Positions 1-31,351 of a DNA stretch of 32,699 nt are shown here, piece by piece. How positions within the stretch are numbered: position 1 is the first letter of the stretch; each line of letters begins with the position of its first letter. Location of the stretch: the NCBI GenBank assembly GCA_028703175.1, contig JAQVNJ010000064.1, positions 1 to 32,699 on the forward strand. The letters run 5' to 3'. The position numbers were made by a program, and so were the translations under genes. The notes beneath the pieces were generated by a model. It was not told the DNA's origin and ran no database searches. It saw only the letters and a program-made list of their open reading frames with translations. The DNA comes from Thermoguttaceae bacterium (GTDB lineage Bacteria; Planctomycetota; Planctomycetia; Pirellulales; Thermoguttaceae).

Positions 1-3000
1 CCGCGGCGTTGTCGTCTTCCTGCCCGTCGTATTCCCAGTCCGGCAGGGTATCGCCCGTGCTCATCCACGGACCGGCGATCACGTGCCGCGCGCCGTCGTC
101 CGCCCAGATTGTCGGGCCGTTGGCCGCATCGCCGTAGTCGACCTCCAGAATCGTGTAGACGTAGTCTTCCACCTCGCCCGAGTAGGCCAAGCCGGTGGAA
201 CCCAAGGTCCAGTCCGGATCGGCGGCGACGCGAAGATCATGTTCCGTCTTGCCGATCAGGCGGAAGCGGGCGTTGATCGCGCCCGGGTCGATCCCCTCAT
301 GGGGCACGAAGAAGTCGATCGTCGCCGTCTCGCCGGCGGCAATCGCCAGGCCGTCGGCGATCTGCTCGTTGCCATCGTGGTCGACTCCGAGTTGTGTCTC
401 GATCTTCGGCTGGCTCTCGAAGAGGCCATCGCCGTTGTAGTCGATCCAGGCGTAGAGGTATCCGCTTTCGGGCGAGCCGGCGTTGACGGTGACTTGAATC
501 GTCGCCCACTCGCCCGGCACGAGCTGCGTCGTTGGCTGGCCCAGCACGTCGAACAGAATCACGCCGTCCTCGTCGTCGACACCCGTCTGGTCATCGACGA
601 AGACCACGCTGGGATCGACCGGCAGGTCATGGTCGGTTGGATTCGTGCCCATCCAGGGACCGTAGGGCACGAGCGGCTCTCCGAGCACCGCCGGCGCTTG
701 GGTGAAGACGTGCGGGGCGGTCCCCGCGCCGGGAGCGTCGCCGTGGTCCACCATGTGGATATAGCCCACGTAGTCTTCCACCTCGCCGTCGAGGGCCAGG
801 CCATCGAAGGACAGGCCCGGATCGGTGCTGATGCGGAAGCGGAGGAACGTCATGCCGGGCGCGGCGTCTTCCGGCATCTGGAAGTGAACGGTCCGTGTGC
901 CGTCGGCGTTGGGAGGGATCAGACTGACGTCGACGAAATCGTCGCCGGAGACCACCGCGCCGTCGCCCCAGCGGACCGTCTCGGAGGTATCCCACAGTCC
1001 GTTGCCATCGTAGTCGATCCAGCCCTTCAAATAGGCGGGTCCGCTGGGGTCGTCGAGCGTGACCATCGCGTCGAGCGCGATCCACTCGCCGGGCACGAGA
1101 ACGGCGCCGGCGATGTCCAGCCCGTCCTCGTCGTCCTCGCCGCTGCGGTCGTCGCCGAGGGCGTCGTCCGATGGATAGCCGTCGAGGTCGTGATCGACGA
1201 GCGTGCCCAGTCGCGGGCCGGCGATCACGTGCCGTGCGCCATCATCGGCGCGAAGCGTTCCGTATTCTTCCGGGGCGTCGCCGTAGTCGATCGGCGGCAC
1301 GTTGATCAAGTAGTCTTCCACCTCGCCGCTGAGCGCCAACCCCTCCGGGCCGAGCGGCTGGCCGCTGGCGTCCAGCCCGTCGGACGTAATGCGGAACCGT
1401 GCGTAGGTGTCGCCCGGCAGGGCGTCTTGCGGCACGCTGAAGCTGAGCGTGTTGAGCTGGTCGTTGCGGAGCGGTTGGTGGGTGAAGACTTGCTCGCCGG
1501 GCTCGAAAACGCCGTTGGCGTTGAAATCGACCCAGGCTTCGAGCAATCCCGGCCACTGGCCGCCGGCCAGCTCGCCGGTCAGCCCGTCAAGCGCGGTGCC
1601 CGTCAGGTCGGCCGAACCGTCGTTGGTCGGATCGCCGCCGAGGTCCAGCTCGGCAACGAACGGCCCGCTGGCGTTGATCGCCTCGACAATTTCCAGCGCT
1701 GTCGCGCCCGGATTGTACCGGACCGTCAGCGAGGGGGCGTCCAGGTCGTAAGAGACCACCGGCGGGGCGTTCGTGTCGTCGATGATCGCGGCTTCGAGCG
1801 GGCTGCCCGCCGCATCAACCGCGGTCTTCAGGTCGTTGAGCGTCGCCACGCCCGGCTTGAAGACGATCAACAGCGTGCTGCTTGCGGCGTTCCACGAAGC
1901 GGTTGCCGGCTCGCTCTCGGCGGCCGCGTGCTCGAACCTGACCGTGATCCCGTTGTATTGTCCGCCGCTCTCCTTGGCGCGGATCGCGAAGGCGTTGTTG
2001 GCGCCGGCCGGATCGATCGCGCCGGTTGTCGCCTTGGCGAAACTCGAGCCGTAGTCGGTGGGATACTCCTCGCCGTCACCGATGTCCGAGGCGGCGATCG
2101 TGCCGCTGCCGTCATTGGGCAGGCCGTCGACCTGGAGAAAGCTCACGAGCGTCCCGTTCAGCGGATCGCCGTAATCGGCGGCGCGGACGATGAACGAGTC
2201 GTTCTCGCCCGCGGACGGATCGACGGCCAGCTGCGCCCGTCCGTCGAACCCTTCCCGGCCCATCGTCACGCTGATCATGACCGTCTCGCCCGGAACGATC
2301 AACTCGTTGAAGATCACGCCGTCTTCGTCGGCCTCGCCGTCGTTGTCGTCGCCGTTGGCGGCGGGGCCGGGCTTGCCGTTCTCGTCGGAGTCGACCAGTT
2401 CGCCGAGCCGCGGTCCGGCGATCACGTGCCGCGCGCCGTCGCTGATCACGTTGCCGTAGATATCCCGCTCGAGAACCGTGCCGAAGCTGTTTGGCGCGTC
2501 GCCGTAGTCCATCTGGTGGATGATCACGGCGTAGTCCTCGACCTCGCCGGAGGTGGCCAGGCCGCCGGGGCCAAGCAACTCGCCGTCGGCGCTGCGGCCG
2601 GTTTCCGAGACGCGGAACCGCGCGTAGCTGGCGCCGGGCCGGGCGCTTTCCGGCACGAAGAACTCGTAGGTGTGCGTCCCGTCCTCGAGGACCTGGTTGG
2701 TGAAGATCCGCTCGTAGGCCCCATCGAGGAGGAATTCCGCTCCGTCGAAAACGACCGCGTCTTCGCCCAAGACGCCGCTGCCGTCGTTCACGTCGGCGGT
2801 CAGCGCCGCGCCGAGCGGGCCGGGGGCGGCGTTGATCCGGTTGACGATGTCTTGGACCGTGGTCACGCCGGGGACGAACCGGACGCTGAGCGTGTCCTCG
2901 CCGTTCCAGCTGACCGAGGCGGCGTTTCGCACTTCGTAGAAGGCCACGGTGATGCCGTTATGGGCCGGATCGTTCGTCGTGGCGAAGACCTCAAACGCGT

Positions 3001-6000
3001 TGTTGATGCCCGGCGGGTTGATCGGGCCGATCGTCGCCGGCACGGCCCAGTCGCCGCCGCTGGTCACATAGGCGGGGCCGCGGGCCAAGACGCCCTTGGC
3101 GAACACGCCCGAGCCATCATTGGGCGCGGCGAGCAGGCTCGCGGCCACGGGCTGGCCGAGCGTGTTGATCGCCTGCACGATCTCCGCGGCGGTGGTCACG
3201 TCCGGCTGGAGCCGCACCGTGACCTTGGCGGCGGAGACGCCGGGCACGGCGGGCGTCCACGACGCGCCGGGATCATCCGTGGCGATGTGCTCGAAGACCA
3301 GGTCGAAATTGCCGTCCTCGCCGGGAACCGTCGCCTCCACGCGGAAATCGTTCTGCTCGCCGACAAGGCCGGCCAGCTCCGCCGATGCGTGCGCGCCCGG
3401 CCCCGCCGCAATCGCCGAGATCGTCAATCCGTCGGGGGCATCCGCACCGGCCAGCGCGCCGCTGCCGTCGTTCGGCTCGGGATCGGCAAGCCGGGCGGTA
3501 AAGGGAGTCCCGCTGAGCTCGATTGCATCGATCACGGCCAGGGCCGTGCTCACGCCGGGCTCGTAGCGAACCGTCAGCGTGTCCAGGCCGTTCCAGACCA
3601 CGCTGATCGGATCACCGGGATTGTCCACCTCGTAGAAGGTGATCCACTTGTTGTTCATGCCCGAGGTGTTGTCACGGGCAATGATTTCGAAGGCGTTGTC
3701 TTCGCCGAGCGGATTGATGACGCCACTGGTGGCCTGCGACGTCTCCGAGCCGCCGCTGGTAATCCAGGTCGCGGCGAGACGGACGCTGTCCGAGGGGCTC
3801 CTGCCCGAACCGTCGTTCTCCGCCGCGGCCTCGAAGTCGGCCACCACGGGCAGGTCCGCGGCGTTGATCGCGGACACCAGTTCGGCCACGGTCGTCACCC
3901 CTGGCTCGTACTGGATGCTCAAGACCCGCGCGGCCGCGTCGTAGGCGACGTCGAGCGCATCGCCCGTGTTGAACACCACGCCGATTCGCGTCCCCACCTG
4001 GCCCGGCTCCCTGGCCGTGAGGAGGAACGCATCGTGTTCGCCAGCAGGGTCGATCACGCCGCTGGTGGCGTACTCGTCGCTCCAGAGGCCGTCGCCATCG
4101 AAGTCGATCCAGCCTTCGAGCACTGCGCCGGCCGCGCCGTTGAGATTCAGCGTCACGCGGACCTGCGAGGCGTCGTCGCCCGGAATCAGCCGGACGCCGA
4201 CAAACTCCACGCCGTCTTCGTCATCCACGCCGACCTGGTCGTCGCCGTCGGCCAGCAGCGTCGGCTGGCCGTCCATCTCGGCATCGATCCGGCTTCCCAG
4301 GAAGGGCCCGTGGATGTAATGCGTGGCGCCGTCGTGCGCCTCGAGCGTCGGGTAGAGGTACCTGCCGGAGAGCGCGTCGGTCGGCGCGTCGCCCCAATCC
4401 TGCCGGTAGCGGACGATGTCCAGCATGTAGTCCTCGACCTCGCCGTCGTAGGCGATCCCCTCCGAGCCGACGGCCGGGCGGTCCATGATGCCGCTGGCCG
4501 GGTTGGTCGCCGGGCCGAGCCAGGGCACGCCGGCAAACGCGAAGCTCGTGAAGCGGAAGCGGGCGCCCCGCGCGTAGACGTCGGCGGCCCCGGGCGCCGC
4601 CGGGTTGACATACGCGTCGCCGGGCACGTTGACCGTGAGCGTGTTCTCGCCGGCGTCGAGCCAGAGGTCCTCGGCGATCCGCTCGACGGCCTGGTCGAAC
4701 TTGCCGTCGCCGTTGAAATCGATCCAGGCGTTGAGATATCCGCCGGTCGAGGCGGCGATCGCCAGCGTCCCCACGCCGGAGCCGTCGATCTGGTCGCTGT
4801 CCATTTGCAGGGCGGCAGAAACCGTCACCCCGTCGTCGTAGTAATCCCCGCTGGCATCGGCGCTGGCGGCCGCGTCGAGCTCCACCGTCGGCGGCAAGCC
4901 GAGATAGACGCCGCCGGTGACCACGTGCCGCGGGCCGCCCTGGCCGTCGACCGGGCCGCTCTCCAGCAGTGTCGCGTAATCGGGCGAAGACGCCCCGGCC
5001 GGATCGTCGGGCAAATCGCCGTAATCCAGCCCCGTCAGGTGCACGGTGAACAGCGTCTTGCCGGCAAACGGCGGCGCCGAGCGGTTCGGCTGCAACGGGT
5101 TGCCCGCCAGGTCGCGGACTTGCTCGTTGTTCACGTCGATCACGTAGTAGTAGCCCGGCTGCCAGATGCCGCTGGCCGGGATGACGTGGAGGATGTTGTT
5201 CGCCGCGTCCCAGTCGAGGAGATAATCGGCGTCCAGCCGCAGCGTCGGCCAGTCGGCCTCGGGCGCGGCGGTGAGCTCCGCCAGGTCGAGGACGCGGTAA
5301 ACCTTGACCACGTTCGTGCGGACCGTGACCCGGTCGGCGAGGGTCACCGACAAGTCGTCGATGCCGATCCCGCCGGCATCGTAAAGCTGGACCGCGAAAT
5401 CCGTGGTCTTCTGGCTGATCACCACGACGTCGTGATCGGCCGCGTTGTAGTCGTAGAAGCCGTCGACCTTGGGATTGGTGCCGTCGCGAGGCGCGGTGTT
5501 GTCGAGCGGATCGACGATCCGCGCGGTTGGGCCGGTGAAGTCAGCCCGCTCGATCGCCCCGCGGTCCTTGAAGATGTTCGTTCCCATGCCGGAGGGGGGC
5601 GCCTGGTTCGGATCGTCGTCCCGCAACTGGGCGTAGCGGTCGCGCGCCGGCGTGATGATCGGCGAGGGGGGGATTCCCAGCGGCTCCTTGATTCCCGGCC
5701 ACATTTCCGAGCGATCGGCCAGGCTGTCGATCGAGCTGTCGATCGCCCGGCTGCCCGAGGCGAGATAGAAATTGTAGTTCGCCCGATCGACGAACAGAGG
5801 CTGGCCGGCGGCCAGCGAAATATCGAAGGTGCCGGCGGCGCCGGCGCTCGTGTTCGTCGTATTGTCTTGGAAGAGGTTGTAGTTGCTCACGCTCCTGGAC
5901 AGCGACGTGGCGTCGATCGAGATCCCCACGCCACTCGCCGTCACGATGTTGTTCAGGATCGTGGGGCCGGCGTAGTCGGTGACGCGAATCCCGTAGTCGC

Positions 6001-12000: not shown

Positions 12001-15000
12001 CGATGTCGTCCCAGGCCGCCGGCCAGATGAAGTTCAGGTGCACGAGGTCGTTGTCGCCGGGATAGACGGCTTCGCCGTCGCCGTCGCCGTCGTCGCCCAT
12101 CGTCGCCGGGATGTCGTAGGCGTGGCCGAGCGAGAGGGCGTGGCCGATCTCGTGGATCGCCGTGTTGAACCACCCCCCGCCGTATTCGCTTAAGCCCCAG
12201 TCCATCGCGGCGTTGATAATCGCCAGCCCGGGGCCGCCCAGGCCGGCCACGGCACCGACGGGAATCTTGGGGTTGATGGCCCGCAGATCGCCGGTGATCA
12301 CCTGGATTCCGGAGCCGGCCGTCTCGACGAACTGGATGCCGATATAGTTGCCGTAGATCTCGAAGATTTCGCGAGTCCGCTGCTTCTGCTCCTCGGTGAT
12401 CTGGTTTGGCGTGGTCCACCCGTAGTTGGCCGCGAAGTTGTAGTACATCACGCCGCTGCCGAGATTGGGGCCGGTGGCCGAGAAGTGGGCTTCCGGGAGG
12501 ATGTGCCGGTGGCCCGGCTCGTCGAGTCCGCCCGGCTGGACCAGCACGCTTGCATCGCCCCGGTCGATGGTCTGGCCGGTGATCGCCTTTTCCGCCGCCC
12601 CCAGAATGCCCAGGTTGGTCGCCGTGTCGTAGCTCGAATTGGCGTTGGAGATCGCCAGGTCGCTGTCCAGCTTCACGTTGAGCTGGTAGGAGCCGCCGGC
12701 CGCGCTGGAGACGCGCAGGTAGTAGGTGCCGCCTTCGACCAGATCGCCCGGCCAGACAGCTCCACCTTCGTCGAGAATCTCGGCGGTGAATCCGGCGGTC
12801 ATGGTCACTTCCAGTGGGCCGCTCGCCCCGGCCTGGATGCGGTAGTAGTCCACTTCCGCCGCGCCGGCCGGCGCGTCGCCGATGAAGCCTTCCAGGCTGG
12901 CCGCGGTCGTGTTGCCATAGAGCGTCCCCACGTTGACCGCGGTGGCCAGCGTATCGTTCGATTCGTCGGAGGGCCCGATCTCCAGGTGGTAGGTGCTCGG
13001 GCTCAACGGGCCGCTGAAGAGCAATTGTGCCTTGTCGCCGACCGGGTCGTAAACCACCTTCGTGGGAATCAGAATCTCGCCGGTGGCCGTGTTCTGCAAA
13101 CGGTAGAAGGCCGGGTTGGTCGCCGAAGCGGGATCCAGATCGTCGTCGTTGAAGTAGACGTCGACCTTGTCGGTCGCCTGGTTGAGCGTCTTGATCGTCT
13201 GCACGTCGAAGAGGCTGGAGCCCTCGTTGAACGACGCCCAGCGCCCGCTGAGGTCGACGGCTCCTCCGGCAAGCTGCGAGGCGATCAGGTCGCCGTCGAG
13301 CAGCTCCGCGGCGATCGCCGCATTGATCGCATCATTGACCAGCGCGGCCACCGCCTCGGCGGTGGTCGTCCCTGCCGGGTCGAAGTTGACCGCCACGTTG
13401 CCGGCGGCAACCCGCGGATTGCCGAGCCCGTCGACGTCCGTGTAGTGGTTCAGCTCGAAGGTCACCGTGTTGAACCCGTCGCCGGCGGTGAACGTCTCGC
13501 CGTCGTCCGCCGCGGTGATCGCCGGCGTCGTCACCCGCAGCGGCCCGCGGTAGACCGGCTGGGGCACGACCGAAACGACCTGGGCGCCCAGGTCGAGTTC
13601 GAAGCGGATCGTCTGGTCGTTGCCATTGTTGAAGGGCACGCCGGCCGCGTTGGTCAGCGGGTCCTGGCCGGGCTTGCCCCGGATCAGAATCTGGTAACTG
13701 TCGTCGGGGAGCGTCTGGGCGAACCGCATCACCACCTGGTTGGCTTTGTCGCCGGGCAGCATCTGGTAGGTGATCGGCCCCTTCGTCCCGGTGAGCTGGA
13801 TCGCGCCAAAGGTCGAGTCGAGCAGATCCTGGTTTTCATTGAACTGGAAGAGGAGCTCCCGCGGGGCGACGTTCAGCGTCCCGCCGTCGACCAGTTCGCC
13901 GCCGGCGTTGGGGATGATCTTGACCAATTCCGGACCGACGACCTGGTTCTCGTTCGAGACCAGCAGGGAGAAAGCCTGGGTGACGGCGCCGGCGCCGCCG
14001 ACGTGGATCGTGTATTGCCCCGCGCCGGTCAGGTCGATCTGGACCTGCTCGACATTGTCGACATGGTTCAACTGGGTGCGGACGGCCGGCGCGGCGGGAT
14101 TGGCCGGATCGAGCGTCCAGGGGTAATACGTGTTGCCCCCCTCGTCGGTGATCCAGATGTCGAGGTCGTTGACCAGCGCCGCTGCGCTGTCGTCCAGCCC
14201 GCTGGCCGCCGTGCCGGCCGGGTCCGTCCAGACGAGCGTCGCCCGCAGCGGGCTGTTGCCGGCCGACGTGACGCTCCAGGTCAGCTCGGTTCCGTTGTAG
14301 GTCTGCTCGAAGACCTCCGCCACGCCGCTCCCCTCGGCCGCCTCGCTGATGAACTCGGCGGCCGACTTGGCGTTGATCAGCCCCCAGCCGTAGGTGTAGT
14401 CGGGGCCGAAGTTGCCGGCGTCGGACGCCGTGTGGATGATCAACCCCTTGAGCGTGGCGCTGTTGGGCGCGTAGCCGAGCGTCTCCTCGAAGTGCTGCTT
14501 GAGCAGGACCGCCGTACCGGCCGCGCTGGGCGCGGCCATCGAAGTCCCCTCGCTCGTCCGGTAATCGCTGTTGGAGGCGTCGCTCGTGGAAAACACCCCA
14601 ACGCCGTTGGCAACCACGTCGGGCTTGATCCGTCCGTCGTCCGTCGGGCCCCATCCCGAGAACGCGGACATCTGCACGTCGGAGGCCGCATAGGGATCGA
14701 TCGTCACGTCGTCGACGGCGCCGACCGTAAGGCTGTTCTTGGCCGTCTGCGCCGGCCGCAGCGAGTCGTAGCCCGAGCCTGCATTGCCATCGGCCGGCGG
14801 CGGCGGAAAGTCCGCCGCGTTGGCCAGATAGAACCCTGGCCGCGACCAGCCGGGCAGCCCCGGATCCGACGAAAAGAAAGCGGCGTAGACGCCGACGCCG
14901 GTCAGGTTCCTGTAGTGGTCGGTGCGATCGTTTCCCGCCGCCCAAACGCTCAACAACTCGGGACTGCCGCTGAGGACCTGGTCCAACTGGCGGGCTGTGT

Positions 15001-15760
15001 CTCGATACGAGCCGAACGCCGCGTCTTCGATCTGGCTCGTGGACATGTCGCCGTACCAGACGTCGATGTGGCCGGTCGGCGACGACGGATCGAGTTCCCA
15101 TTCCCAGCCGCAAACCACGCCGTAGGAATGGTTCGAGACGTCGATCAAGCCGGCGTCTCTGGTCATTTCCGTGTAGTCGGAATTCCAGTCATAAGACCGG
15201 ATCGCAACCCCGGTGGCCATCCCCTCCGCTGCGGCGTTCACACCGGCCGCGCCGATCGTCCCTCCGACGTGCGTCGCGTGCCAGTCGCTCGCCGCGCCGT
15301 CGATCACGCTCACCCGGCCGCCGAACTCCTGGTGCGTCGGCAGGACCGCGCCCGCGTCCCAGACGCCCACCGTGTAGCCGCTGCCGTCCAGGTCCAGCCC
15401 CAGCGACCCGCCCGCGGTGATGTATTCCGCGTTCGCCGTGTCGGCCGCGTGGCGATTCAGCGGCCGGATCGGCCGGAAGTCGTCCGGGCTGTCCGCCAGC
15501 GCGATCAACTGGATCTGGCCGGGCTCCGGCAGCGGGCGGACCGCGCTGCCGAAGATCGGTTGATCGTAGGCGACCAGCTCGTCGAGCGTCGATGGGGTGA
15601 TGCTCAGCAGCAGCCGGTGCTCGAATTGCTCCATGCGAAGCCCACGGGGCTTAAGCGACGAAGCGCCTTTGGCGCGTTTTCGCAGCGGGTTGCGTCCATC
15701 TCCAGCTTCTCGATTCTTCTGGCTGCCGGAGATACGTCGGAACGATGTCCAGAGCGACAT
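1..15760 (-). CDS. Giant multidomain putative secreted/surface protein (>5,250 aa inside window; 3' end/C-terminus beyond window start). Domains in order: S8 peptidase; P-domain-like segment; metzincin motif; PPC-like and beta-helix repeats; GEVED repeats.
   Basis: Minus-strand frame (codon low-ends = 2 mod 3) is exactly antisense to all six large + ORFs of the track. My translation of this frame gives high-GC3 codons and recognisable motifs at every sampled site. Start: ATG 15760-15758 (MSLWTSFRRISGSQKN...) with GAGGAGA 8 nt upstream. Alternative start: ATG 15634-15632 (MEQFEHRLLLSITPSTLDELVAYDQPIFGSAVRPLPEPGQIQ...). In-frame TGA at 15766-15764 closes the frame upstream. None of the 20 minus-strand ORFs reported in 1-15781 lies in this frame, so it has no stop down to position 1. 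The ORF therefore runs off the window and was not reported. Confidence 0.8.
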   Translation of the reverse strand, partial: MSLWTSFRRISGSQKNREAGDGRNPLRKRAKGASSLKPRGLRMEQFEHRLLLSITPSTLDELVAYDQPIFGSAVRPLPEPGQIQLIALADSPDDFRPIRPLNRHAADTANAEYITAGGSLGLDLDGSGYTVGVWDAGAVLPTHQEFGGRVSVIDGAASDWHATHVGGTIGAAGVNAAAEGMATGVAIRSYDWNSDYTEMTRDAGLIDVSNHSYGVVCGWEWELDPSSPTGHIDVWYGDMSTSQIEDAAFGSYRDTARQLDQVLSGSPELLSVWAAGNDRTDHYRNLTGVGVYAAFFSSDPGLPGWSRPGFYLANAADFPPPPADGNAGSGYDSLRPAQTAKNSLTVGAVDDVTIDPYAASDVQMSAFSGWGPTDDGRIKPDVVANGVGVFSTSDASNSDYRTSEGTSMAAPSAAGTAVLLKQHFEETLGYAPNSATLKGLIIHTASDAGNFGPDYTYGWGLINAKSAAEFISEAAEGSGVAEVFEQTYNGTELTWSVTSAGNSPLRATLVWTDPAGTAASGLDDSAAALVNDLDIWITDEGGNTYYPWTLDPANPAAPAVRTQLNHVDNVEQVQIDLTGAGQYTIHVGGAGAVTQAFSLLVSNENQVVGPELVKIIPNAGGELVDGGTLNVAPRELLFQFNENQDLLDSTFGAIQLTGTKGPITYQMLPGDKANQVVMRFAQTLPDDSYQILIRGKPGQDPLTNAAGVPFNNGNDQTIRFELDLGAQVVSVVPQPVYRGPLRVTTPAITAADDGETFTAGDGFNTVTFELNHYTDVDGLGNPRVAAGNVAVNFDPAGTTTAEAVAALVNDAINAAIAAELLDGDLIASQLAGGAVDLSGRWASFNEGSSLFDVQTIKTLNQATDKVDVYFNDDDLDPASATNPAFYRLQNTATGEILIPTKVVYDPVGDKAQLLFSGPLSPSTYHLEIGPSDESNDTLATAVNVGTLYGNTTAASLEGFIGDAPAGAAEVDYYRIQAGASGPLEVTMTAGFTAEILDEGGAVWPGDLVEGGTYYLRVSSAAGGSYQLNVKLDSDLAISNANSSYDTATNLGILGAAEKAITGQTIDRGDASVLVQPGGLDEPGHRHILPEAHFSATGPNLGSGVMYYNFAANYGWTTPNQITEEQKQRTREIFEIYGNYIGIQFVETAGSGIQVITGDLRAINPKIPVGAVAGLGGPGLAIINAAMDWGLSEYGGGWFNTAIHEIGHALSLGHAYDIPATMGDDGDGDGEAVYPGDNDLVHLNFIWPAAWDDIDLYKFEVEEWGTLTLETVAERLAATSTLDTQLVLYREVNVEGTLVREIVAQNDDYYSNDSLIELEVAPGVYYVGVMSTGISQVDPTIEDSGFGGRSNGAYELKLAFQAEPAAALVDATGTALDGDADGLAGGTFDFWFRVGNSTLFVDKATGSAGGDGTLEAPYNEIDAALEDAQPGDVVRVVGNGGADGLVETADDNAPYLVGYNNVGAELPDGKLLQVPQDVTLMIDAGAILKLQRANIEVGSSAEGISLDGAAMQVLGTPREKVHFRSFRDDSIGGDSDGSSSGQSGGDWGGLVFRADSDYESDGVFLNWVAWADIQHGGGKVTVGTLEDNYTAIHLVGARPTIAFSEIRHGAGGAISADLASFEETEGRIGPDIHGNTVLDNSINGLFVRIPTQFGSVTEKLEVPGRWDDTDIVHVVTENLLIHGTPGGPLGSSARLDGRLRIDPGVIVKLEGARIHTEIAGQLIAEGLPGNPVVFTSLKDDTYGMGGGFDTSNDGLVNPPSPGQWGGLIFAPASRGSLDYVQLSYAGGETALAGGFDKFNAIEIHQADVRIANSTIELNANGYAGTSNRGGLGTNERAAIFIRGAQPVIVNNKIIDNQGDAITIDANSMNYAALTDPGRSTGAVDAFTQFGDNRGPLVRLNVLDNSPGGGGNQINGMVIRGSTLTTESIWDDTDIVHVLRDEISIDNLHTFGGLRLQSSQDASLVVKLQGANAGFTANGEPLDIEDRIGGTLHILGTPDYPVVLTSLYDDTAAAGFNLNGKPQGNTHPGDTAPAAGNWRSILIDRYANARNVAIVNEIEPAYTGREAINDLPRTAQFLGYLAPDVASDDEDDEKGSDENQRLGFEIHGYISLDDPTDQDVYSFVGKGGTEVWIDIDRTSFALDAKVELVRLDGTVIASSTDNSTLGGAAGTLTQQVFLGGDFYTTNQRDPGMYVVLPGEVGAEGTYFVRVTSQNGTSGYYQLQLRLRQVDEKPGSTIRYADIRYATNGIEVYGQPAHSILAAEAGETTADNNTQAGAQNLGNLLESDINTIGVSGSISAAGDVDWYRFEIDLEQIQAIGGVNAGGKTWSTVFDIDYADGISRADTVLAVYDSAGRLIFVGRDSNIEDDQPGTEPGAGLDRDDLSRGSFGTLDPFIGPVHMPATDQVYYVAVSSNRTLPAELDQTFAGSAANPNIRLEPIDSVQRIVEDHIGFSGFTTGDGSGSVKIDPVESDGILHINNATALSAHVVPFTLSDVVLFVSTDEGGGDRLRTVNPFTGQAVTNIGGLNGTNGYGDLAMRPDGVLFGQTRGNNNANSGNLRIIDTETAAQSGGGDDNIPTDPNIGQRFEALAFMRTSTGNFELYAANNNPYNEDGQAATGNEASPALWRINVSSGAAVDENTSSEATGLQPVGPLPSGATITGMAFSGTTLYAVDSAGNLWRTTIGGSSTSRSHSGWTSVAPLPVGMTGLSFGPQNVNGGAYANMLFASGSDRRLYAFSTSGAPQVVFDTDNDGVTDSSASNATGYAITGLAFSPLDFNLWHPTERRWNDQGHGVNPAFNNSRNTNFDQGTANVTHDNQHDGGASLYFGLEQWESSPNNDEYLRYGVNAQYGIRTSQFHQELTNNAAIGNNYNLPGGAYGSLVTDTFSLSGSVYADKPTLYVNYFLDTEGDAWASSDPMFDSARIWVWGNYGGTLGWHLLATNDSTVSTSNSGGGLHELPRFPSTSSDASSHRRQRVQELFDAGQWRQVRVDLGDFAGQSDLKLRFDFSTAGRMPTAVGTDSPYADLDSSIEGHGDLTNARRGQSNAYEGFYIDDIIIGFVERGEMVTAASGATAHFTLPGQSLEPFDPVEQVTGAYQLEIRRGSEYADNVTAQTANIAILEQFDTNDRLIPSKTANGRHVVNGKYVGSYRGDENVVRQQDQLIIEANTIRDVAGTGILVGPGGRDGTDVPQPGSVINTPVLNNSDLAPGVVIMNNVVASFGQTGILFSGDSNRIGDPIVPFGRIINNTIAGTSSAVSDYGIRVTDYAGPTILNNIVTASGVGISIDATSLSRSVSNYNLFQDNTTNTSAGAAGTFDISLAAGQPLFVDRANYNFYLASGSRAIDSSIDSLADRSEMWPGIKEPLGIPPSPIITPARDRYAQLRDDDPNQAPPSGMGTNIFKDRGAIERADFTGPTARIVDPLDNTAPRDGTNPKVDGFYDYNAADHDVVVISQKTTDFAVQLYDAGGIGIDDLSVTLADRVTVRTNVVKVYRVLDLAELTAAPEADWPTLRLDADYLLDWDAANNILHVIPASGIWQPGYYYVIDVNNEQVRDLAGNPLQPNRSAPPFAGKTLFTVHLTGLDYGDLPDDPAGASSPDYATLLESGPVDGQGGPRHVVTGGVYLGLPPTVELDAAASADASGDYYDDGVTVSAALQMDSDQIDGSGVGTLAIAASTGGYLNAWIDFNGDGKFDQAVERIAEDLWLDAGENTLTVNVPGDAYVNPAAPGAADVYARGARFRFTSFAFAGVPWLGPATNPASGIMDRPAVGSEGIAYDGEVEDYMLDIVRYRQDWGDAPTDALSGRYLYPTLEAHDGATHYIHGPFLGSRIDAEMDGQPTLLADGDDQVGVDDEDGVEFVGVRLIPGDDASQVRVTLNLNGAAGAVLEGWIDFDGDGLWSDEYATSGVIDPAGEHDAFLLTAREPGQVGTRIGVVFNTGDALDVAYDAAARVLSIQYEPGVTTVAELVSAINAADLPVVADFEAAAENDGSGRSPSDSVRLAATWITSGGSETSQATSGVINPLGEDNAFEIIARDNTSGMNNKWITFYEVDNPGDPISVVWNGLDTLTVRYEPGVSTALAVIDAIELSGTPFTARLADPEPNDGSGALAGADAPDGLTISAIAAGPGAHASAELAGLVGEQNDFRVEATVPGEDGNFDLVFEHIATDDPGASWTPAVPGVSAAKVTVRLQPDVTTAAEIVQAINTLGQPVAASLLAAPNDGSGVFAKGVLARGPAYVTSGGDWAVPATIGPINPPGINNAFEVFATTNDPAHNGITVAFYEVRNAASVSWNGEDTLSVRFVPGVTTVQDIVNRINAAPGPLGAALTADVNDGSGVLGEDAVVFDGAEFLLDGAYERIFTNQVLEDGTHTYEFFVPESARPGASYARFRVSETGRSADGELLGPGGLATSGEVEDYAVIIHQMDYGDAPNSFGTVLERDIYGNVISDGARHVIAGPRLGELVDSDENGKPGPAANGDDNDGEADEDGVIFNELIVPGETVMISVTMGREGFDGRAQLAVDPSAGENDSFIVRAADYGDPLNGTLVSFLQVDGLPNDGSGTIAASDIGDGEEYPTDYGSSFAKATTGAIDPAGANNAFAIRAKESGGQYNGITVRFEHAAAESEPATASWNAASSTLLIVFKPGVATLNDLKTAVDAAGSPLEAAIIDDTNAPPVVSYDLDAPSLTVRYNPGATALEIVEAINASGPFVAELDLGGDPTNDGSADLTGTALDGLTGELAGGQWPGLLEAWVDFNANGVFEPGEQVFTHQPLRNDQLNTLSFSVPQDALPGDTYARFRITSDGLDASGQPLGPEGLALSGEVEDYLINVPPIDYGDAPEEYGTLRADDGARHVIAGPRLGTLVDHDLDGYPSDDALGDDRSGEDDEDGLDIAGAVLVPGEWIALDAMVTLDDPSGPAYLKGWIDYDGNGLWDTSETVRWGDGAVVSGDDFVDVSLIPPNADGTRTVHFQMPEDAAPGMTFLRFRISTDPGLSFDGLALDGEVEDYVGYIHMVDHGDAPGAGTAPHVFTQAPAVLGEPLVPYGPWMGTNPTDHDLPVDPSVVFVDDQTGVDDEDGVILFDVLGQPTTQLVPGEWATIQVTVNAGSPESGYLYAWIDYNGDGLFESQPKIETQLGVDHDGNEQIADGLAIAAGETATIDFFVPHEGIDPGAINARFRLIGKTEHDLRVAADPDWTLGSTGLAYSGEVEDYVYTILEVDYGDAANGPTIWADDGARHVIAGPWMSTGDTLPDWEYDGQEDDNAA
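161..178 (-). repeat. GEVED-type repeat #5 (TGLAYSGEVEDYVYTILEVDYGDAANGPTIWADDGARHVIAGPWMSTGDTLPDWEYDGQEDDNAA…)
   Basis: rc-translation of 1-200 was read directly. The protein continues past position 1. Confidence 0.75.
770..787 (-). repeat. GEVED-type repeat #4 (GEVEDY)
   Basis: + strand gtagtcttccacctcgcc, same frame (codon low-end 770 = 2 mod 3). Confidence 0.7.
1310..1327 (-). repeat. GEVED-type repeat #3 (PGDTYARFRITS … ALSGEVEDYLINVPPIDYGDAPEEY)
   Basis: + strand gtagtcttccacctcgcc. The ARFR motif (rc of about 1385-1420) and DYGDAP motif (rc of about 1275-1300) were both verified by translation. Confidence 0.75.
2531..2548 (-). repeat. GEVED-type repeat #2 (…LATSGEVEDYAVI, followed by MDYGDAPN)
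   Basis: + strand gtagtcctcgacctcgcc; rc gives GEVEDY. DYGDAP motif lies about 30 nt 3' of it on the minus strand. Confidence 0.7.
4427..4444 (-). repeat. GEVED-type repeat #1 in window (…IAYDGEVEDYM)
   Basis: + strand gtagtcctcgacctcgcc; rc gives GEVEDY in the giant-gene frame. Confidence 0.7.
5941..6060 (-). other. Parallel beta-helix (PbH1-like) repeat segment, example 2
   Basis: rc-translation gives IVPFGRIINNTIAGTSSAVSDYGIRVTDYAGPTILNNIV. Confidence 0.4.
8843..8863 (-). other. PPC-like (pre-peptidase C-terminal-type) beta-sandwich motif DVDWYRF
   Basis: rc of 8843-8863 (gaagcggtaccagtcgacgtc) gives DVDWYRF, followed by EIDLEQI. A second module nearby ends ...TSGYYQLQLRLRQVDEKPGS (rc of 9061-9120), typical of the PPC terminal strand Y-x-L-x-L. 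Confidence 0.45.
10166..10230 (-). other. Parallel beta-helix (PbH1-like) repeat segment, example 1
   Basis: rc-translation gives QPVIVNNKIIDNQGDAITIDANS. This is an N-N-x-I-x-x-N / I-T-I-D-type rung, as in pectate-lyase-fold beta-helices. Confidence 0.4.
12122..12154 (-). other. Metzincin zinc-binding motif HEIGHALSLGH (HExxHxxGxxH), serralysin/matrixin-like, within giant protein
   Basis: rc-translation of 12061-12240 gives GGPGLAIINAAMDWGLSEYGGGWFNTAIHEIGHALSLGHAYDIPATMGDDGDGDGEAVYPGDNDLVHLNFIWPAAWDDI. The Met in IPATM is a possible Met-turn. Frame is continuous with the rest of the giant ORF. Confidence 0.7.
14211..14255 (-). other. Subtilase C-terminal P-domain-like segment (motif PLRATLVWTDPAGT)
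   Basis: rc-translation of 14211-14255 gives SPLRATLVWTDPAGT. An L-x-W-T-D-P motif typically follows S8 catalytic domains, in kexin/P-domain-like beta-barrels. Confidence 0.4.
14480..15400 (-). other. Subtilisin-like serine peptidase (S8) catalytic domain of giant protein
   Basis: Translated directly. Asp motif GYTVGVWDAGAVLPTHQEFGGR (Asp codon = rc of 15356-15358). His motif DWHATHVGGTIGAAG (about 15265-15295). Oxyanion Asn in VSNHSYG (about 15135). Ser motif TSEGTSMAAPSAAGTAVLLKQHF (Ser codon = rc of 14540-14542). Order D-H-N-S and spacing are typical of subtilases. Confidence 0.8.
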
Positions 15761-15768
15761 GGATCATC

Positions 15769-15775
15769 TCTCCTC
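15769..15775 (-). promoter_or_regulatory. Shine-Dalgarno-like GAGGAGA, 8-nt spacer before ATG 15760 of the giant gene
   Basis: Minus strand reads ctaattGAGGAGAgatgatccATG. Confidence 0.45.
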
Positions 15776-16641
15776 AATTAGATTGGGCGTCGTGGTTCTT
15801 CGCTGAGATGGCGATTACCGAGGCAGACCTCGCGGGGGTCGCAAAACAGAGAATTCGCATCGTTCCGAAACGCGGGGCAATTGCCTTGGAAGGGGACGTG
15901 GAGCGATTATGCGGGTCCTGTTGCCGATTCTGTTTGGCGCGGATGCAAATGTCAAGTTTTTTTCGTAAAGAAGGTGGAACTCGCCAGCCGTCGCGGCGGC
16001 CGCCGGCGCCGCGACCGCCGGGTGAATGCCGTGGGCGGGCCGGCGCGATTCCGGCCGGCCTGCGCCGGCGACCGGCCGAGCTGGGCCGCCAGGGCGAATT
16101 CCGGTTCCTCGCCGATCGGTCGCCCCCGGCCTAGGCGGGTTCGCTGCCAGGAAACACGGCAACAGAGAACACGAAAAATAAGGGGCAGAGTTGCCACCCA
16201 GTCGGCGTTCTCTGGCCCCGCTATGGTGCGGTCGGAGCGCCGATCTCCAGGGCGGCCGGCGGTTGGGCGGAATTCTGGGAGGACCGCAAAAAAGATGTGC
16301 GAAGCGGGCTTCCCCCGCTGACCGCCCCCCCCATAATGGGTGTGAAGAACTTGCAGTGCGGCAGGCGCGCGGAGCGCCTGCTCGTTCGCGCTCGGCGGCT
16401 TCTCGCCATCTTGGAGCCAAGGCTTCGAGGTCCCGGGGTCGGCCGAAGGGGGGCTGCGGCGGGGGCGGTTGTCCGCCCGGTCTGGAACCGATGCGGCCGG
16501 GAGATTTTGCCGTTGGTTGCCGTGTGCGCCCGAGGAGCAGGCTCTTTTTTAGGAATATTGCCGACGGGCACGCCGCTTGCTCCCAACAAATGCCCGACAT
16601 GCCGGCATCCAGCCGGGAAGGCAGAAACGGGAGAGGAACCG

Positions 16642-17559
16642 ATGAGCGAAGAGATCAAGCAGGCCGAGCCCACGGCCGAGACGAGCCGCGATTGCCGAAA
16701 GGGCAGACCACTCAGTGCCAAGGGGTTCACGTCGCTCTTCCTCACGCTCACATTCGGGGCCGTGGCGTCTTCCGGCGCGATCCTTTACCTGACGCCCCGC
16801 GGCCGCGTCGCCAATTGGACCGATTGGACGATGCTCGGGCTGAGCAAGGACGAGTGGGCCGCCCTGCACATGAACACCTGCGCGGTCCTGGTCCTCGTGG
16901 CGGCCGTGCACCTGGCGCTGAACTGGAAGATGTTCGCCGGCTATCTCTACCGCAAGGCGACGGGGGGGCTCAATTTGAAACGCGAGATGTCCTTGGCCGC
17001 GGCGCTCGCCGCCGTGCTCGTTGTGGGCACGATCCGCGCGTGGCCGCCGCTGGACTATCTGGCCGGCCTCAACACGCGGATCAAGGATTCCTGGGAGACG
17101 CGGACCGCCGAGGCGCCGGCGCCCCACGCGGAGGAACTCAGCTTGGCGCGGTTTGCCGCCCAGATCAACCTGCCGCTCGACGAGATCAGGGTGACCCTGG
17201 CGGAGGAGGGCTTCACGGTCGACGACGCCGAGCGGACGGTCGGCGAGATCGCCCGCCAGAAGGGCGTTGCCCCCAGCGCCGTGATGGCCGCGATCCGCAA
17301 GCATCACCCCGATGCCGCCCCGGCCCAAGGCTTCGGCCGCGGGCGCGGCATGCGACCGGGGATTGGCGCCGGGCAGCAGGATTCCGAGGGACCGGCCGGG
17401 GAAGACGCCGCGGCCGAGAGCCGGCCGTCGGCTGGCGACGGCTCGGGCCAAGGACGCGGTCAGGGGATGGGCCAGGGGCGGGGGATGGGCCGTGGCATGG
17501 GCGCCGGGCGGGGCATGGGCATCGGCCGCGGCATGGGAACCGGACCCGATCCCGAATAA
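16642..17559 (+). CDS. Membrane protein, 3 predicted TM helices (DUF4405-like core, tentative), with C-terminal Gly/Arg/Met (RGMG)n low-complexity tail
   Basis: ATG 16642 (MSEEIKQAEP...) with GGGAGAGGA 5 nt upstream. It is in the same frame as track ORF 16297..17559, whose first 115 aa look like non-coding read-through. Hydrophobic stretches are FTSLFLTLTFGAVASSGAILYL, CAVLVLVAAVHLALNW and LAAALAAVLVVGTI. Confidence 0.7.
   Translation: MSEEIKQAEPTAETSRDCRKGRPLSAKGFTSLFLTLTFGAVASSGAILYLTPRGRVANWTDWTMLGLSKDEWAALHMNTCAVLVLVAAVHLALNWKMFAGYLYRKATGGLNLKREMSLAAALAAVLVVGTIRAWPPLDYLAGLNTRIKDSWETRTAEAPAPHAEELSLARFAAQINLPLDEIRVTLAEEGFTVDDAERTVGEIARQKGVAPSAVMAAIRKHHPDAAPAQGFGRGRGMRPGIGAGQQDSEGPAGEDAAAESRPSAGDGSGQGRGQGMGQGRGMGRGMGAGRGMGIGRGMGTGPDPE
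17446..17544 (+). repeat. Coding tandem repeat GQGRGQGMGQGRGMGRGMGAGRGMGIGRGMGTG (about 7 RGMG/GxGMG units)
   Basis: Imperfect 12-15-nt ggc-atg-ggc-ngg periodicity at the 3' end of CDS 16642..17559. Confidence 0.7.
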
Positions 17560-19015: not shown

Positions 19016-19651
19016 ATGTTCACACTCTTTCTGTTCTGTGCGGTGTTAGGCGGCGTGGTTCTGGTCTGCCAGATCGTGATGACGATCGCCGGCGCCGGCC
19101 TTGGCGGGGGCGACGTGGACATCCCCGGCGACGCGGGAGGATTTGGCGACGTAGATTTGGATGTCGGCCACGGCGACGTCCATGGCGGCGACCTGAACTC
19201 GGAGCACGCCGACTCGACGGCCGGGTTCCGCGTGATTTCCCTGCGAACCGTGATTGCCGGAGTTGCTTTCTTCGGTCTCGGCGGCCTGGCGGCGGACAGC
19301 ACCGGAGCCGCCCCGGTCGTCGTCTGGGCGATCGCGCTGGCCGCCGGGGCCGCCGCGATGTACGGCGTCTACTGGATGTTTCGTACCCTGTATTCCCTGA
19401 AATCCGACGGCACCGTCCAGATTGCCAACGCGATCGGCCAACACGGCACCGTTTACCTGCGGATTCCCGGCAACGACTCGGGGGCGGGCAAGATTCAGAT
19501 GTGCCTCCAGTCGCGCACGGTGGAGTACCTGGCGACGACGTCCGGCGAGGGATTGCCCACGGGAACCAGAATCGTCGTTGTCGACGTCGTCACACCGACG
19601 ACCGTTCAAGTTGAACCGGTCCTTGAACCCGAAAGGAACGAGCATGTTTAG
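19016..19651 (+). CDS. NfeD-like membrane protein (N-terminal TM region, C-terminal OB-fold), partner of flotillin
   Basis: ATG 19016 (MFTLFLFCAVLGGVVLVCQIVMTIAG...) with AAGGAG 9 nt upstream. C-terminal GTVQIANAIGQHGTVYLRIP...GTRIVVVDVV resembles the NfeD OB-fold. It overlaps the next gene by 8 nt. Confidence 0.65.
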   Translation: MFTLFLFCAVLGGVVLVCQIVMTIAGAGLGGGDVDIPGDAGGFGDVDLDVGHGDVHGGDLNSEHADSTAGFRVISLRTVIAGVAFFGLGGLAADSTGAAPVVVWAIALAAGAAAMYGVYWMFRTLYSLKSDGTVQIANAIGQHGTVYLRIPGNDSGAGKIQMCLQSRTVEYLATTSGEGLPTGTRIVVVDVVTPTTVQVEPVLEPERNEHV

Positions 19652-28840: not shown

Positions 28841-28971
28841 GGCCGCCACGAGGGGCAGCCGGCCGCCGAGCGGCCCCTTTGCTGGTCCAAGGGCAACTCT
28901 CTCTCGTTGAGCGGTCGCCTTTCCTCTCGGCGACCGCGGATTGACCGCCGAATCGCGCAATCAGGAGCGAC

Positions 28972-31228: not shown

Positions 31229-31351
31229 ATCAACCGGTTGGACCAGCCGCATCCGGCTGGGGCGGTCCCTGCCGAGGGGACCCTCTGCCGCTCCCCTCCA
31301 GCCCCCGGCGCCGAAGGCAGGGCTGGTCCAACCAGTTCGGGCTCGCCCGCG

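What the first reader, a model, noticed from the sequence alone, without database searches (positions are those of the whole stretch)
1..15781. ORF track is misleading here: one >15.7-kb minus-strand gene is missed and six long + ORFs are its antisense shadow
All six large + ORFs (starts 83, 7691, 9446, 10100, 11909, 12485) sit in a single frame (start mod 3 = 2). They translate to V/D/R/G/A-rich low-complexity sequence with poor GC3. The codon-aligned minus frame gives protein-like sequence with strong GC3 and recognisable motifs at every place I translated: 1-200, 770, 1310, 2531, 4427, 5941-6060, 8341-8400, 8843-8863, 9061-9120, 10166-10230, 12061-12240, 14211-14255, 14521-14560 and 15061-15640. 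None of the 20 minus ORFs listed in this span is in that frame, which implies no in-frame stop from 15763 down to position 1. The ORF finder presumably dropped it because it runs off the window edge.
Basis: partly seen in the sequence, partly recalled or inferred. Interest (0 to 1): 0.8.

Follow-up and report, generated by a model that had tools for sequence, protein, structure and literature searches.

The report
Giant planctomycete surface-protease gene, edge-truncated
This kind of giant gene is already well known in this phylum.

Summary
The minus-strand frame from 15763 to 1 has no stop in 5,254 codons, where about 116 are expected. Its GC3 is 0.90, and it carries real domains: S8 subtilase, a metzincin-like HEIGHALSLGH motif, PPC, beta-helix and GEVED repeats. 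The six plus-strand ORFs share the codon-aligned antisense frame and have no domain hits. Changed codons against a sister genome are 52 synonymous to 245 non-synonymous in that frame, against 157 to 140 in the minus frame.

An overlapping metagenome contig extends the open frame to at least 7,348 codons. A near-identical 59-kb contig has a complete 7,247-aa call, and a sister genome has a 9,799-aa orthologue. The window ends inside a 552-nt exact repeat, which explains the assembly break.

The organism is a Thermoguttaceae/Pirellulales MAG (Planctomycetota). The protein starts with the known planctomycete cell-surface export motif. Its central core (metzincin, beta-helix, a 930-aa propeller-containing module, second beta-helix) recurs in giant ORFs at 568 Planctomycetota loci.

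In one NCBI assembly the gene calls over this span are the shadow ORFs. The finding is correct but ordinary: a new member of a known kind. The function (secreted protease-adhesin) is inferred.

The parts
1..15760 (-). Giant CDS, window part: codons 1-5,253 counted from ATG 15760. The gene continues past window position 1.
   Evidence: No stop in 5,254 codons; GC3 0.90. The frame continues open in contig Ga0209612_1000855 to at least 7,348 codons. Called on this strand in other assemblies.
15758..15775 (-). Start codon ATG (15758-15760) with an SD-like GAGGAG (15770-15775) 9 nt upstream. An in-frame TGA lies at 15764-15766.
   Evidence: Sequence read. The same start (MSLW/MSIW.SFRR...) is used in P0001, P0002, P0005 and L090. 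JGI's caller used the second ATG at 15634.
15596..15760 (-). N-terminal basic stretch plus 'RGLRMEQFEHRLLLS', which matches the planctomycete cell-surface export motif RRLxxExLExRxLLA.
   Evidence: Sequence. The motif recurs at the N-termini of family members. Consensus as quoted in PMC8567305. The PF07595 HMM itself gave no hit at E<=1. No hydrophobic h-region in the first 100 aa.
14339..15406 (-). Peptidase S8 (subtilase) catalytic domain: D136 (VGVWD), H162 (HATHV), N278 (AAGND), S408 (GTSMA).
   Evidence: Pfam PF00082, 118.8 bits against a cut-off of 21.8. Motif positions.
13964..14338 (-). Beta-barrel domain C-terminal to S8, of the KP-43/SubHal type.
   Evidence: phmmer against PDB: aa 324-600 align to 5fax_A and 1wmd_A through their C-terminal domain, E=4.5e-27.
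12644..13963 (-). Linker domains (aa 601-1040). In family members without S8, these follow the N-terminal motif directly.
   Evidence: Conserved in 42 of 80 related loci. N-termini of those members. No Pfam hit apart from a weak PPC.
12059..12466 (-). Metzincin-like (M10/matrixin-like) domain. Zinc motif HEIGHALSLGH at 12122-12154, with Met1222 eight residues after the third His.
   Evidence: Pfam Peptidase_M10 at 16.8 bits, below the 24-bit cut-off. phmmer to the MMP-12 catalytic domain at E=6.6e-6, aligned through the motif and the Met. HEIGH..GH.YD is invariant in P0002 and P0004. The AF2 model was unusable.
11777..12004 (-). PPC (pre-peptidase C-terminal) domain.
   Evidence: Pfam PF04151, 32.5 bits against a cut-off of 25.9 in the 2,000-aa piece.
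9434..11566 (-). Beta-helix region 1 with internal repeats (aa ~1400-2110).
   Evidence: Weak Beta_helix hit. Internal repeats at aa 1477-2041. Conserved in 73 of 80 related loci.
6314..9163 (-). Planctomycetota-specific module of about 930 aa with no family annotation. It starts with a PPC-like piece, and a beta-propeller-like core lies at about aa 2480-2790.
   Evidence: 110 homologues, nearly all Planctomycetota and most with no Pfam annotation. 568 loci in GTDB genomes. AF2 mean pLDDT 62 with a confident beta core. Only generic WD40-type fold matches.
5114..6301 (-). Beta-helix region 2 (NosD-like).
   Evidence: Pfam Beta_helix at 27.5 bits against a cut-off of 25.9. Conserved in 66 of 80 loci.
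1..4981 (-). GEVED-type repeat array, window part (aa ~3595-5254). It continues outside the window to aa ~6482 and is followed by at least 8 PKD domains.
   Evidence: Pfam GEVED at 194 bits with 5 stretches. Self-similarity. Nine contiguous units at aa 4826-6482. GEVED and PKD_4 hits in L001 and L002.
1..127 (.). Left arm of a 552-nt exact direct repeat that recurs 1,737 nt (3 repeat units) further into the gene. The window ends inside it.
   Evidence: the longest exact match at offset 1737 is 552 nt, starting at gene nt 15637 (window position 127). Units u5209 and u5788 are 98% identical in DNA.
83..15781 (+). Six plus-strand shadow ORFs (83-7666, 7691-9280, 9446-10051, 10100-11908, 11909-12193, 12485-15781). 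They are non-coding.
   Evidence: All in the codon-aligned antisense frame, which has only 5 stops because only 4.3% of sense codons end in A. No Pfam hits. Synonymous to non-synonymous 52:245.

Best explanation
Window 1-15760 is the 5' two-thirds of a single giant minus-strand gene in a Thermoguttaceae/Pirellulales (Planctomycetota) chromosome. At least 22 kb of open frame can be read directly. The full product is about 7,250-7,900 aa in this population and 9,799 aa in a sister species.

The six long plus ORFs are antisense shadows. Sense codons end in G or C 90% of the time and in A only 4.3% of the time. A stop in the codon-aligned antisense frame must start with T, which needs a sense codon ending in A, so stops there are almost absent.

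Shown: the product has, in order, the planctomycete cell-surface export motif; an S8 subtilase with an intact D/H/N/S set and a KP-43-type beta-barrel; linker domains; a matrixin-like zinc-metallopeptidase motif with Met-turn spacing; PPC domains; two beta-helix regions flanking a 930-aa propeller-containing module; an array of GEVED adhesin-stalk domains with near-identical recent duplicates; and a run of PKD domains.

Inferred: it is exported to the cell surface or the medium. There the two N-terminal protease domains degrade proteinaceous polymers, and the long beta-rich stalk and the GEVED/PKD array space the heads from the cell and bind surfaces or particles. The tandem repeats expand and contract by recombination, giving length variation between strains and breaking short-read assemblies.

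The confidence of 0.88 refers to the gene structure and the shadow-ORF explanation. The functional reading taken alone is about 0.5.
For: Gene structure:
- No stops, with e^-117 as the chance expectation, and GC3 of 0.90.
- Pfam hits on the minus frame only.
- The frame is extended by an independent contig that is 100% identical over its 973-nt overlap with the window.
- Minus-strand giant calls of 5,174, 5,097 and 7,247 aa in other assemblies of the same locus.
- A syntenic orthologue of 9,799 aa with 90% aa identity over its first 1,499 aa.
- Codon-position and synonymous/non-synonymous asymmetry.
- Collinear orthologues in L003, L004 and L023.

Function:
- S8 score and catalytic motifs, and the KP-43/SubHal match.
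- MMP-12 match through HExxHxxxxxH and the Met.
- GEVED is described as a stalk domain of fibrillar adhesins (PMC10952558).
- The N-terminal motif matches the R. baltica cell-surface export consensus (PMC8567305).
- More than 90% of bacterial giant genes encode surface proteins or PKS/NRPS (Reva and Tummler, as quoted in PMC5177795).
- Taxon from the exact flotillin neighbour, named Thermoguttaceae or Pirellulales.
Against: No expression, localisation or activity data exist.

- The 3' end was not read in this strain. Assemblies disagree on length: a complete 7,247-aa call against at least 7,348 open codons read here. Repeat copy number may therefore be mis-assembled.
- The metallopeptidase domain is below Pfam's curated cut-off, has Ser where the metzincin consensus has Gly, and could not be confirmed by structure (pLDDT 41).
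- The PF07595 HMM did not hit the N-terminus.
- There is no classical Sec signal, no transmembrane segment and no recognised anchor in 7,348 aa. The C-terminal 369-aa domain, seen only in orthologue L003, has no annotation.
- Orthologues in L003 and L004 are frame-broken. L004 looks like homopolymer assembly error, but L003 is unresolved.
Confidence: 0.88

Rival explanations
1. The plus-strand ORFs, or some of them, are the real genes, and the long minus frame is a compositional accident.
For: They are long (up to 2,527 aa) and have start codons. In assembly GCA_036725785.1 the gene calls over this span are two of these plus ORFs, 697 and 1,090 aa.
Against: No Pfam hits. Low-complexity V/R/A/G/D composition, with GC concentrated at codon position 1. 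Synonymous to non-synonymous 52:245 against the sister genome. The minus frame is equally open in that same assembly. An open frame of 5,254 codons has a chance probability of about e^-117.
Confidence: 0.01
2. The giant frame is real DNA, but it is either an assembly chimera of repeat-containing genes or a decaying pseudogene and not one functional gene.
For: The window ends in a 552-nt exact repeat. Assemblies disagree on total length. Orthologous regions in L003 and L004 are split over several frames.
Against: Within the window the architecture is collinear with independent orthologues (L004, L023, L014, L090). Four assemblies of the same locus are identical or nearly so, and all are open. 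At least 22 kb without a stop, together with excess synonymous change, indicates ongoing purifying selection. L004's frame switches sit at homopolymers, and a neighbouring FGGY kinase is also split, so these are assembly indels. Only the repeat copy number beyond about aa 5,200 is in doubt.
Confidence: 0.04
3. The gene is as described, but the proteases do not digest external substrates. The S8 and/or metzincin domains instead process the giant precursor itself into separate mature fragments, or the protein serves cell-cell contact or predation and not nutrient acquisition.
For: N-terminal S8 domains on giant Omnitrophota proteins have been proposed to cleave the giant proteins into smaller polypeptides (bioRxiv 10.1101/2023.11.21.568195). 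The S8 head is a lineage-specific addition to a conserved core found without it in most relatives (3 of 80 loci have it).
Against: No cleavage sites, toxin domains or immunity genes were found. The neighbours are housekeeping genes. KP-43-type subtilases are secreted degradative enzymes (own knowledge of family S8A). No test run here separates this reading from the main one.
Confidence: 0.2

Closest known systems
[quoted passage not shown] 2016, PMC5177795)
   Same: A chromosomal gene far above the 5-kb threshold, and above 20 kb. It is from Planctomycetota, has a beta-rich repetitive adhesion-type domain content, and is predicted to be a surface protein. All 29 genomes surveyed had such genes and 15 had genes over 20 kb.
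   Different: This particular family is not described in the papers read: an S8 head, a metzincin-like domain, a 930-aa unannotated module and a GEVED/PKD tail. The organism is an uncultured Thermoguttaceae MAG.
KP-43 / SubHal oxidatively stable subtilases (PDB 1wmd, 5fax; MEROPS S8A)
   Same: The catalytic domain and the following C-terminal beta-barrel align over aa 324-600 at E=4.5e-27, and the catalytic Ser region is conserved.
   Different: Those are secreted enzymes of about 430 aa. Here the unit is the head of a protein of more than 7,000 aa and is preceded by a planctomycete export motif.
Matrixins / M10 metzincins (e.g. MMP-12 catalytic domain, PDB 1utt)
   Same: HExxHxxxxxH with the third His at the consensus spacing and a Met 8 residues after it. 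The alignment covers about 105 residues of the catalytic domain at E=6.6e-6.
   Different: Below Pfam's gathering score (16.8 against 24 bits). Ser replaces the consensus Gly. The fold is not confirmed.
CshA-type fibrillar adhesins with GEVED stalk domains (PMC10952558)
   Same: Multiple PF20009 GEVED domains above threshold, arranged in tandem as a stalk.
   Different: No CshA_NR2 ligand-binding domain, no LPxTG or other recognised anchor, Gram-negative-type host, and far more GEVED units (at least 9 contiguous, plus diverged ones).
Giant Omnitrophota proteins ('Archaeovorins', bioRxiv 10.1101/2023.11.21.568195)
   Same: Giant PVC-superphylum proteins, some with N-terminal S8 domains. They show the same problem of assembly fragmentation at repeats.
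   Different: Those are 30,000-85,000 aa, with transmembrane segments, glycosyl-transferase/hydrolase and SecA-like domains. None of these is seen here.

Membership tests
Peptidase S8 (subtilase), Pfam PF00082 | HMM score above the curated gathering threshold | tested here: met
   118.8 bits against a cut-off of 21.8, aa 157-461.
Peptidase S8 (subtilase), Pfam PF00082 | Asp/His/Ser catalytic triad in subtilase order, with the oxyanion Asn | tested here: met
   D136 in VGVWD, H162 in HATHV, N278 in AAGND, S408 in GTSMA. Assignment of the motifs to catalytic roles rests on established knowledge of S8.
Peptidase S8 (subtilase), Pfam PF00082 | Proteolytic activity | not testable with these tools
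   Needs an enzyme assay.
Metzincin / Peptidase M10 (PF00413) | HMM score above the curated gathering threshold | tested here: not met
   16.8 bits against a cut-off of 24, E=0.0067. The related protein P0004 does carry a precomputed PF00413 hit.
Metzincin / Peptidase M10 (PF00413) | HExxHxxGxxH zinc-binding motif followed by a Met-turn | tested here: inconclusive
   HEIGHALSLGH has all three His and the Glu at the right spacing, but Ser at the Gly position. Met1222 lies 8 residues after the third His, as in MMP-12, and is aligned by phmmer at E=6.6e-6.
Metzincin / Peptidase M10 (PF00413) | Metzincin fold | tested here: inconclusive
   The AF2 model from 3 sequences has pLDDT 40.7, so no fold search was attempted.
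GEVED domain (PF20009) | HMM above the gathering threshold, with the GEVED motif | tested here: met
   194.4 bits with 5 stretches in the window part, and 7 more stretches in L001 and L002. The literal 'GEVEDY' is visible in the units.
PKD domain (PF18911 / PF00801) | HMM above the gathering threshold | tested here: met
   PKD_4 at 181.6 bits with 8 stretches. These lie in the extension outside the window (L002 2310-4916).
Giant gene in the sense of Reva and Tummler (over 5 kb) | A single uninterrupted CDS longer than 5 kb | tested here: met
   15,760 nt in the window, at least 22,045 nt with the extension. Threshold as quoted in PMC5177795.
Planctomycete cell-surface export signal (PF07595, Planc_extracel) | N-terminal RRLxxExLExRxLLA-type motif | tested here: inconclusive
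   RGLRMEQFEHRLLLS matches the quoted consensus at most positions, with L to F and A to S, and is conserved in relatives. The Pfam HMM gave no hit at E<=1.
Fibrillar adhesin (signal, adhesive tip, stalk repeats, anchor) | A recognised cell-wall or membrane anchor at one end | tested here: not met
   No transmembrane-grade hydrophobic segment in 7,348 aa. No anchor family in Pfam or NCBIfam. The orthologue's C-terminal 369 aa are unannotated. Our own C-terminus was not read.

The most novel reading that the evidence does not exclude
The central 3,000 aa form an uncharacterised, Planctomycetota-wide giant-protein chassis: linker, metzincin-like domain with PPC, beta-helix, a 930-aa propeller-containing module, and a second beta-helix. 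It occurs in at least 568 loci, always inside ORFs of 3,400 to over 7,500 aa, and has its own still-unknown surface function. This Thermoguttaceae lineage has fused an extra S8 protease head and a rapidly expanding GEVED/PKD tail onto it, giving a dual-protease surface machine of 7,000-10,000 aa.
Probability: 0.2. Interest if true: 0.5.

Novelty: new member of a known kind. Interest (0 to 1): 0.3.

Why it matters
There is a practical point and a biological one.

Practical. In high-GC genomes, an ORF list that drops edge-truncated frames will replace a giant gene with its antisense shadows. This has happened with public data: for assembly GCA_036725785.1 the called products over this locus are two shadow ORFs (697 and 1,090 aa), and they now sit in a 15-billion-protein collection. 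Two more shadow ORFs occur elsewhere in this same window.

Biological. The locus adds a well-supported example of a dual-protease surface protein of about 7,000-10,000 aa. It exposes a conserved, unannotated 930-aa module shared by hundreds of planctomycetal giant proteins. It also shows repeat-driven length variation between near-identical strains.

None of this overturns current understanding, because giant surface-protein genes are a known hallmark of Planctomycetota.

Tried and rejected
Searches that failed or found nothing:
- Whole-protein homologue searches failed. One was over the 5,000-aa limit and one timed out.
- An exact search for the window's left edge in GTDB genomes found nothing.
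- The whole-protein self-BLAST returned no off-diagonal hits; tiling the protein was needed.
- NCBIfam gave nothing above any curated cut-off.
- The PF07595 HMM did not hit the N-terminus.
- No tRNA or Rfam family was found in the window.

Structure work that did not resolve function:
- The AF2 model of the metzincin+PPC region was unusable (3-sequence alignment, pLDDT 41), so no fold search was run on it.
- The model of the 930-aa module was only moderate (pLDDT 62). Foldseek against PDB gave only generic WD40-type propellers with TMq of at most 0.18, so no function follows.

Limits reached:
- I could not read the remaining 20.6 kb of contig Ga0209612_1000855 or the giant gene in Ga0239563_000465. 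Metagenome scans were exhausted, and the exact-protein look-up only accepts proteins that are complete in the window.

Ideas rejected:
- An early hint of 'Phycisphaerales' taxonomy (name of P0121) was dropped in favour of Thermoguttaceae/Pirellulales, from the exact flotillin match.
- PKS/NRPS, polymorphic toxin and phage-tail readings were rejected. No such domains were found, and the neighbours are housekeeping genes.
Full report
**Observation.** The minus-strand frame that contains position 15763 has no stop codon down to position 1, a run of 5,254 codons. From base composition about 116 stops are expected, so the chance of none is about e^-117. GC by codon position is 0.65/0.47/0.90 and is steady along the whole length. 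The plus ORFs at 83, 7691, 9446, 10100 and 12485 appear in the ORF list and all share start mod 3 = 2. That frame has exactly five stops, which gives six open segments, one of them starting at 11909. Its translation is V/R/A/G/D-rich, and its GC sits at codon position 1 (0.895). The ORF tool does not list ORFs that run off the source, which explains the omission. The true start is ATG 15760. It follows an in-frame TGA, has a GGAG 9 nt upstream, and is the start used by orthologues.

**Which strand codes.** Three independent tests agree.
- Domains: Pfam finds Peptidase_S8 (118.8 bits), PPC, Beta_helix and multiple GEVED domains on the minus translation, and nothing on the four large plus ORFs tested.
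- Mechanism: only 4.3% of sense codons end in A. The codon-aligned antisense frame can have a stop only opposite sense TTA, CTA or TCA, and these occur 2, 1 and 2 times. That accounts for the five stops.
- Evolution: against a sister genome that is 92% identical in DNA, mismatches fall 90/67/198 on sense codon positions 1/2/3. Changed codons are 157 synonymous to 140 non-synonymous in the minus frame and 52 to 245 in the plus ORF frame.

**Extension beyond the window.** An exact 60-mer from the left edge hit JGI contig Ga0209612_1000855. Its first 973 nt are the reverse complement of window 973-1 with no mismatch. Joining the two consecutive stored pieces (contig 1-7255) keeps the frame open to 22,045 nt, or 7,348 codons, still without a stop.

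The flotillin gene next door (window 19644-21239) occurs with exactly the same protein sequence on at least 23 contigs:
- ENA contig NODE_869 (L085) is identical to the window over 21.6 kb. It carries a minus-strand call of 5,174 aa cut off by the contig end.
- A 59-kb JGI contig (L086, 1 mismatch in 21.6 kb) has a 7,247-aa call lying inside the contig.
- In sister genome GCA_050949665.1 (L090) the syntenic orthologue is 9,799 aa and lies inside a 278-kb contig. It is 90% identical in protein over its first 1,499 aa.
- In orthologue L003 the gene runs about 550 aa past our last codon to a clean stop, followed by a convergent gene.

The full length in this population is therefore about 7,250-7,900 aa.

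**Repeats and assembly.** Nine contiguous GEVED-type units of 161-203 aa span aa 4826-6482. Units at aa 5209 and 5788 are 98% identical in DNA, and a 552-nt exact repeat starts at window position 127 and runs off the window edge. This explains why several short-read assemblies end here. The complete 7,247-aa call is also shorter than the 7,348 open codons read here. The difference is about what three 193-aa units plus a tail of about 550 aa as in L003 would give. Repeat copy number therefore either varies between strains or is collapsed in one assembly. I could not tell which.

**Architecture.**
- aa 2-56: a basic stretch plus RGLRMEQFEHRLLLS. This closely matches the planctomycete cell-surface export consensus RRLxxExLExRxLLA (PMC8567305), and similar motifs sit at the N-termini of family members. 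The Pfam HMM for this motif did not hit, and there is no classical hydrophobic signal.
- aa ~120-600: S8 subtilase with D136, H162, N278 and S408 plus a beta-barrel, most similar to KP-43/SubHal (E=4.5e-27).
- aa ~1100-1235: a matrixin-like domain with HEIGHALSLGH and a Met eight residues after the third His. It aligns to MMP-12 at E=6.6e-6 but scores below Pfam's cut-off, and the structure model failed.
- Next come PPC domains and a repeat-containing beta-helix region.
- After these lies a 930-aa module without any annotation. Its confident core is a generic beta-propeller.
- A second beta-helix follows, then the GEVED array, and outside the window at least 8 PKD domains.

No transmembrane-grade segment occurs in the 7,348 aa.

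**Family context.** A scan of GTDB species genomes with the 930-aa module found 568 loci. The 80 loci kept are nearly all labelled Planctomycetota, and they include the cultured Roseiconus nitratireducens. In those 80, the module lies in open frames of 3,400 to over 7,500 aa, apart from loci truncated by short contigs. The block linker, metzincin+PPC, beta-helix, module, beta-helix 2 is collinear in 60-79 of them at about 40-57% identity. The S8 head occurs in 3 and the GEVED/PKD tail in 5-7. The gene is thus a member of a large, uncharacterised planctomycetal giant-protein family that has gained an S8 head and an adhesin-stalk tail.

The organism is a Thermoguttaceae/Pirellulales MAG, because the exact flotillin protein carries those names in NCBI. 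The neighbours are housekeeping genes: RNase HII-like, flotillin, TPR, RibBA, PIN-TRAM, HIT, ScpA, MBL and ADH.

**Mechanism.** The gene structure, domain content, conservation and purifying selection are shown. The function is inferred. The protein is exported through the planctomycete surface-protein route. It presents two protease domains on a long beta-rich stalk, and the GEVED/PKD array provides spacing and binding to surfaces or particles. GEVED is described as a stalk domain of fibrillar adhesins (PMC10952558). More than 90% of bacterial giant genes encode surface proteins or PKS/NRPS (quoted in PMC5177795), and no PKS/NRPS domains are present. A rival reading, that the proteases process the giant precursor itself as proposed for Omnitrophota giants, cannot be excluded.

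**Frame-broken orthologues.** L004 and L003 carry the orthologous region split across frames. In L004 the switches sit at C7, C5 and G5 homopolymers, and a neighbouring FGGY kinase is also split, so these are assembly indels. L003 is unresolved.

**Annotation consequence.** For NCBI assembly GCA_036725785.1 (L087), the called genes over this span are plus-strand ORFs of 697 and 1,090 aa. These correspond to window 10100 onwards and 12509-15781, although the minus frame is open there too. Both products are in the large protein collection, without accession or name. They may therefore be the collection's own calls and not GenBank CDSs.

**Verdict.** The feature is a new member of a known kind (giant planctomycetal surface-protein genes) and its interest is modest.

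Noticed in passing
window 27062-28960 (-) and 28064-28840 (+): The 632-aa minus ORF is real only in its last 179 aa (HIT domain, 27062-27601). Its upstream two-thirds is antisense to a plus-strand scpA gene (SMC_ScpA, 126.8 bits). This is a second shadow-ORF case in the same window.
   Followed up: yes
window 31238-32389 (+) and 31352-32185 (-): The 383-aa plus ORF has no Pfam hit and overlaps a minus-strand YbjN-family gene (42.9 bits). It is probably a third shadow ORF.
   Followed up: partly
window 15815-16600 (-): A 261-aa ORF is called as a gene in the ENA, JGI and NCBI-derived calls. It has no GC3 enrichment (0.68/0.69/0.62), is P/R/G-rich and has no Pfam hit. It fills the ~880-bp divergent intergenic region between the giant gene and the DUF4405 gene (16642-17559), so it is probably a spurious call.
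   Followed up: partly
L087 457-2550 (+) and 2866-6138 (+) (NCBI GCA_036725785.1, DAIMDO010000043.1): The shadow ORFs of the giant gene (697 and 1,090 aa) are the called genes in this assembly, and they are stored as proteins in the 15-billion-sequence collection without accession or name.
   Followed up: yes
L086 (JGI 3300038805, Ga0239563_000465) compared with window + L001 + L002: A near-identical strain has a complete 7,247-aa call, but the sequence read here has at least 7,348 open codons with about 550 more expected. This fits a difference of about three 579-nt repeat units. Whether it is an assembly collapse or real strain variation is unresolved.
   Followed up: partly
L090 1-6529 (NCBI GCA_050949665.1, JBMNGD010000007.1): The sister-species orthologue is 9,799 aa. 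An extra FAD-dependent oxidoreductase gene (456 aa) sits between it and the DUF4405 gene there, and it is absent from the window.
   Followed up: partly
L004 6305-7676 and 12526-19018 (ENA ERZ21831104, ctg89573l): Frame switches in the giant-gene orthologue fall at homopolymer runs, and a neighbouring FGGY kinase is split into N and C halves in different frames. The contig probably carries systematic indel errors.
   Followed up: yes
L005-L084 (GTDB Planctomycetota genomes): A collinear core of about 3,000 aa (metzincin-like+PPC, beta-helix, unannotated 930-aa module, beta-helix) recurs inside giant ORFs at 568 loci. The 930-aa module has no Pfam or NCBIfam family.
   Followed up: partly
window 20001-21000: The AT skew of +0.38 stands out in the composition profile. 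It corresponds to the E/A/K/R-rich coiled-coil part of the flotillin (SPFH) gene at 19644-21242.
   Followed up: yes
window 19016-19651 (+): A 211-aa ORF is called in all assemblies and overlaps the flotillin start by 8 nt. It has no Pfam hit. It could be the usual membrane partner of a flotillin operon, but this was not examined.
   Followed up: no
L003 12329-13438 (+): The orthologue's last 369 aa have no family hit and contain about six loosely repeated 'D..(F/M)(Y/H)D(S/T).GDD'-like motifs. This is a candidate anchoring or calcium-binding C-terminal domain.
   Followed up: no
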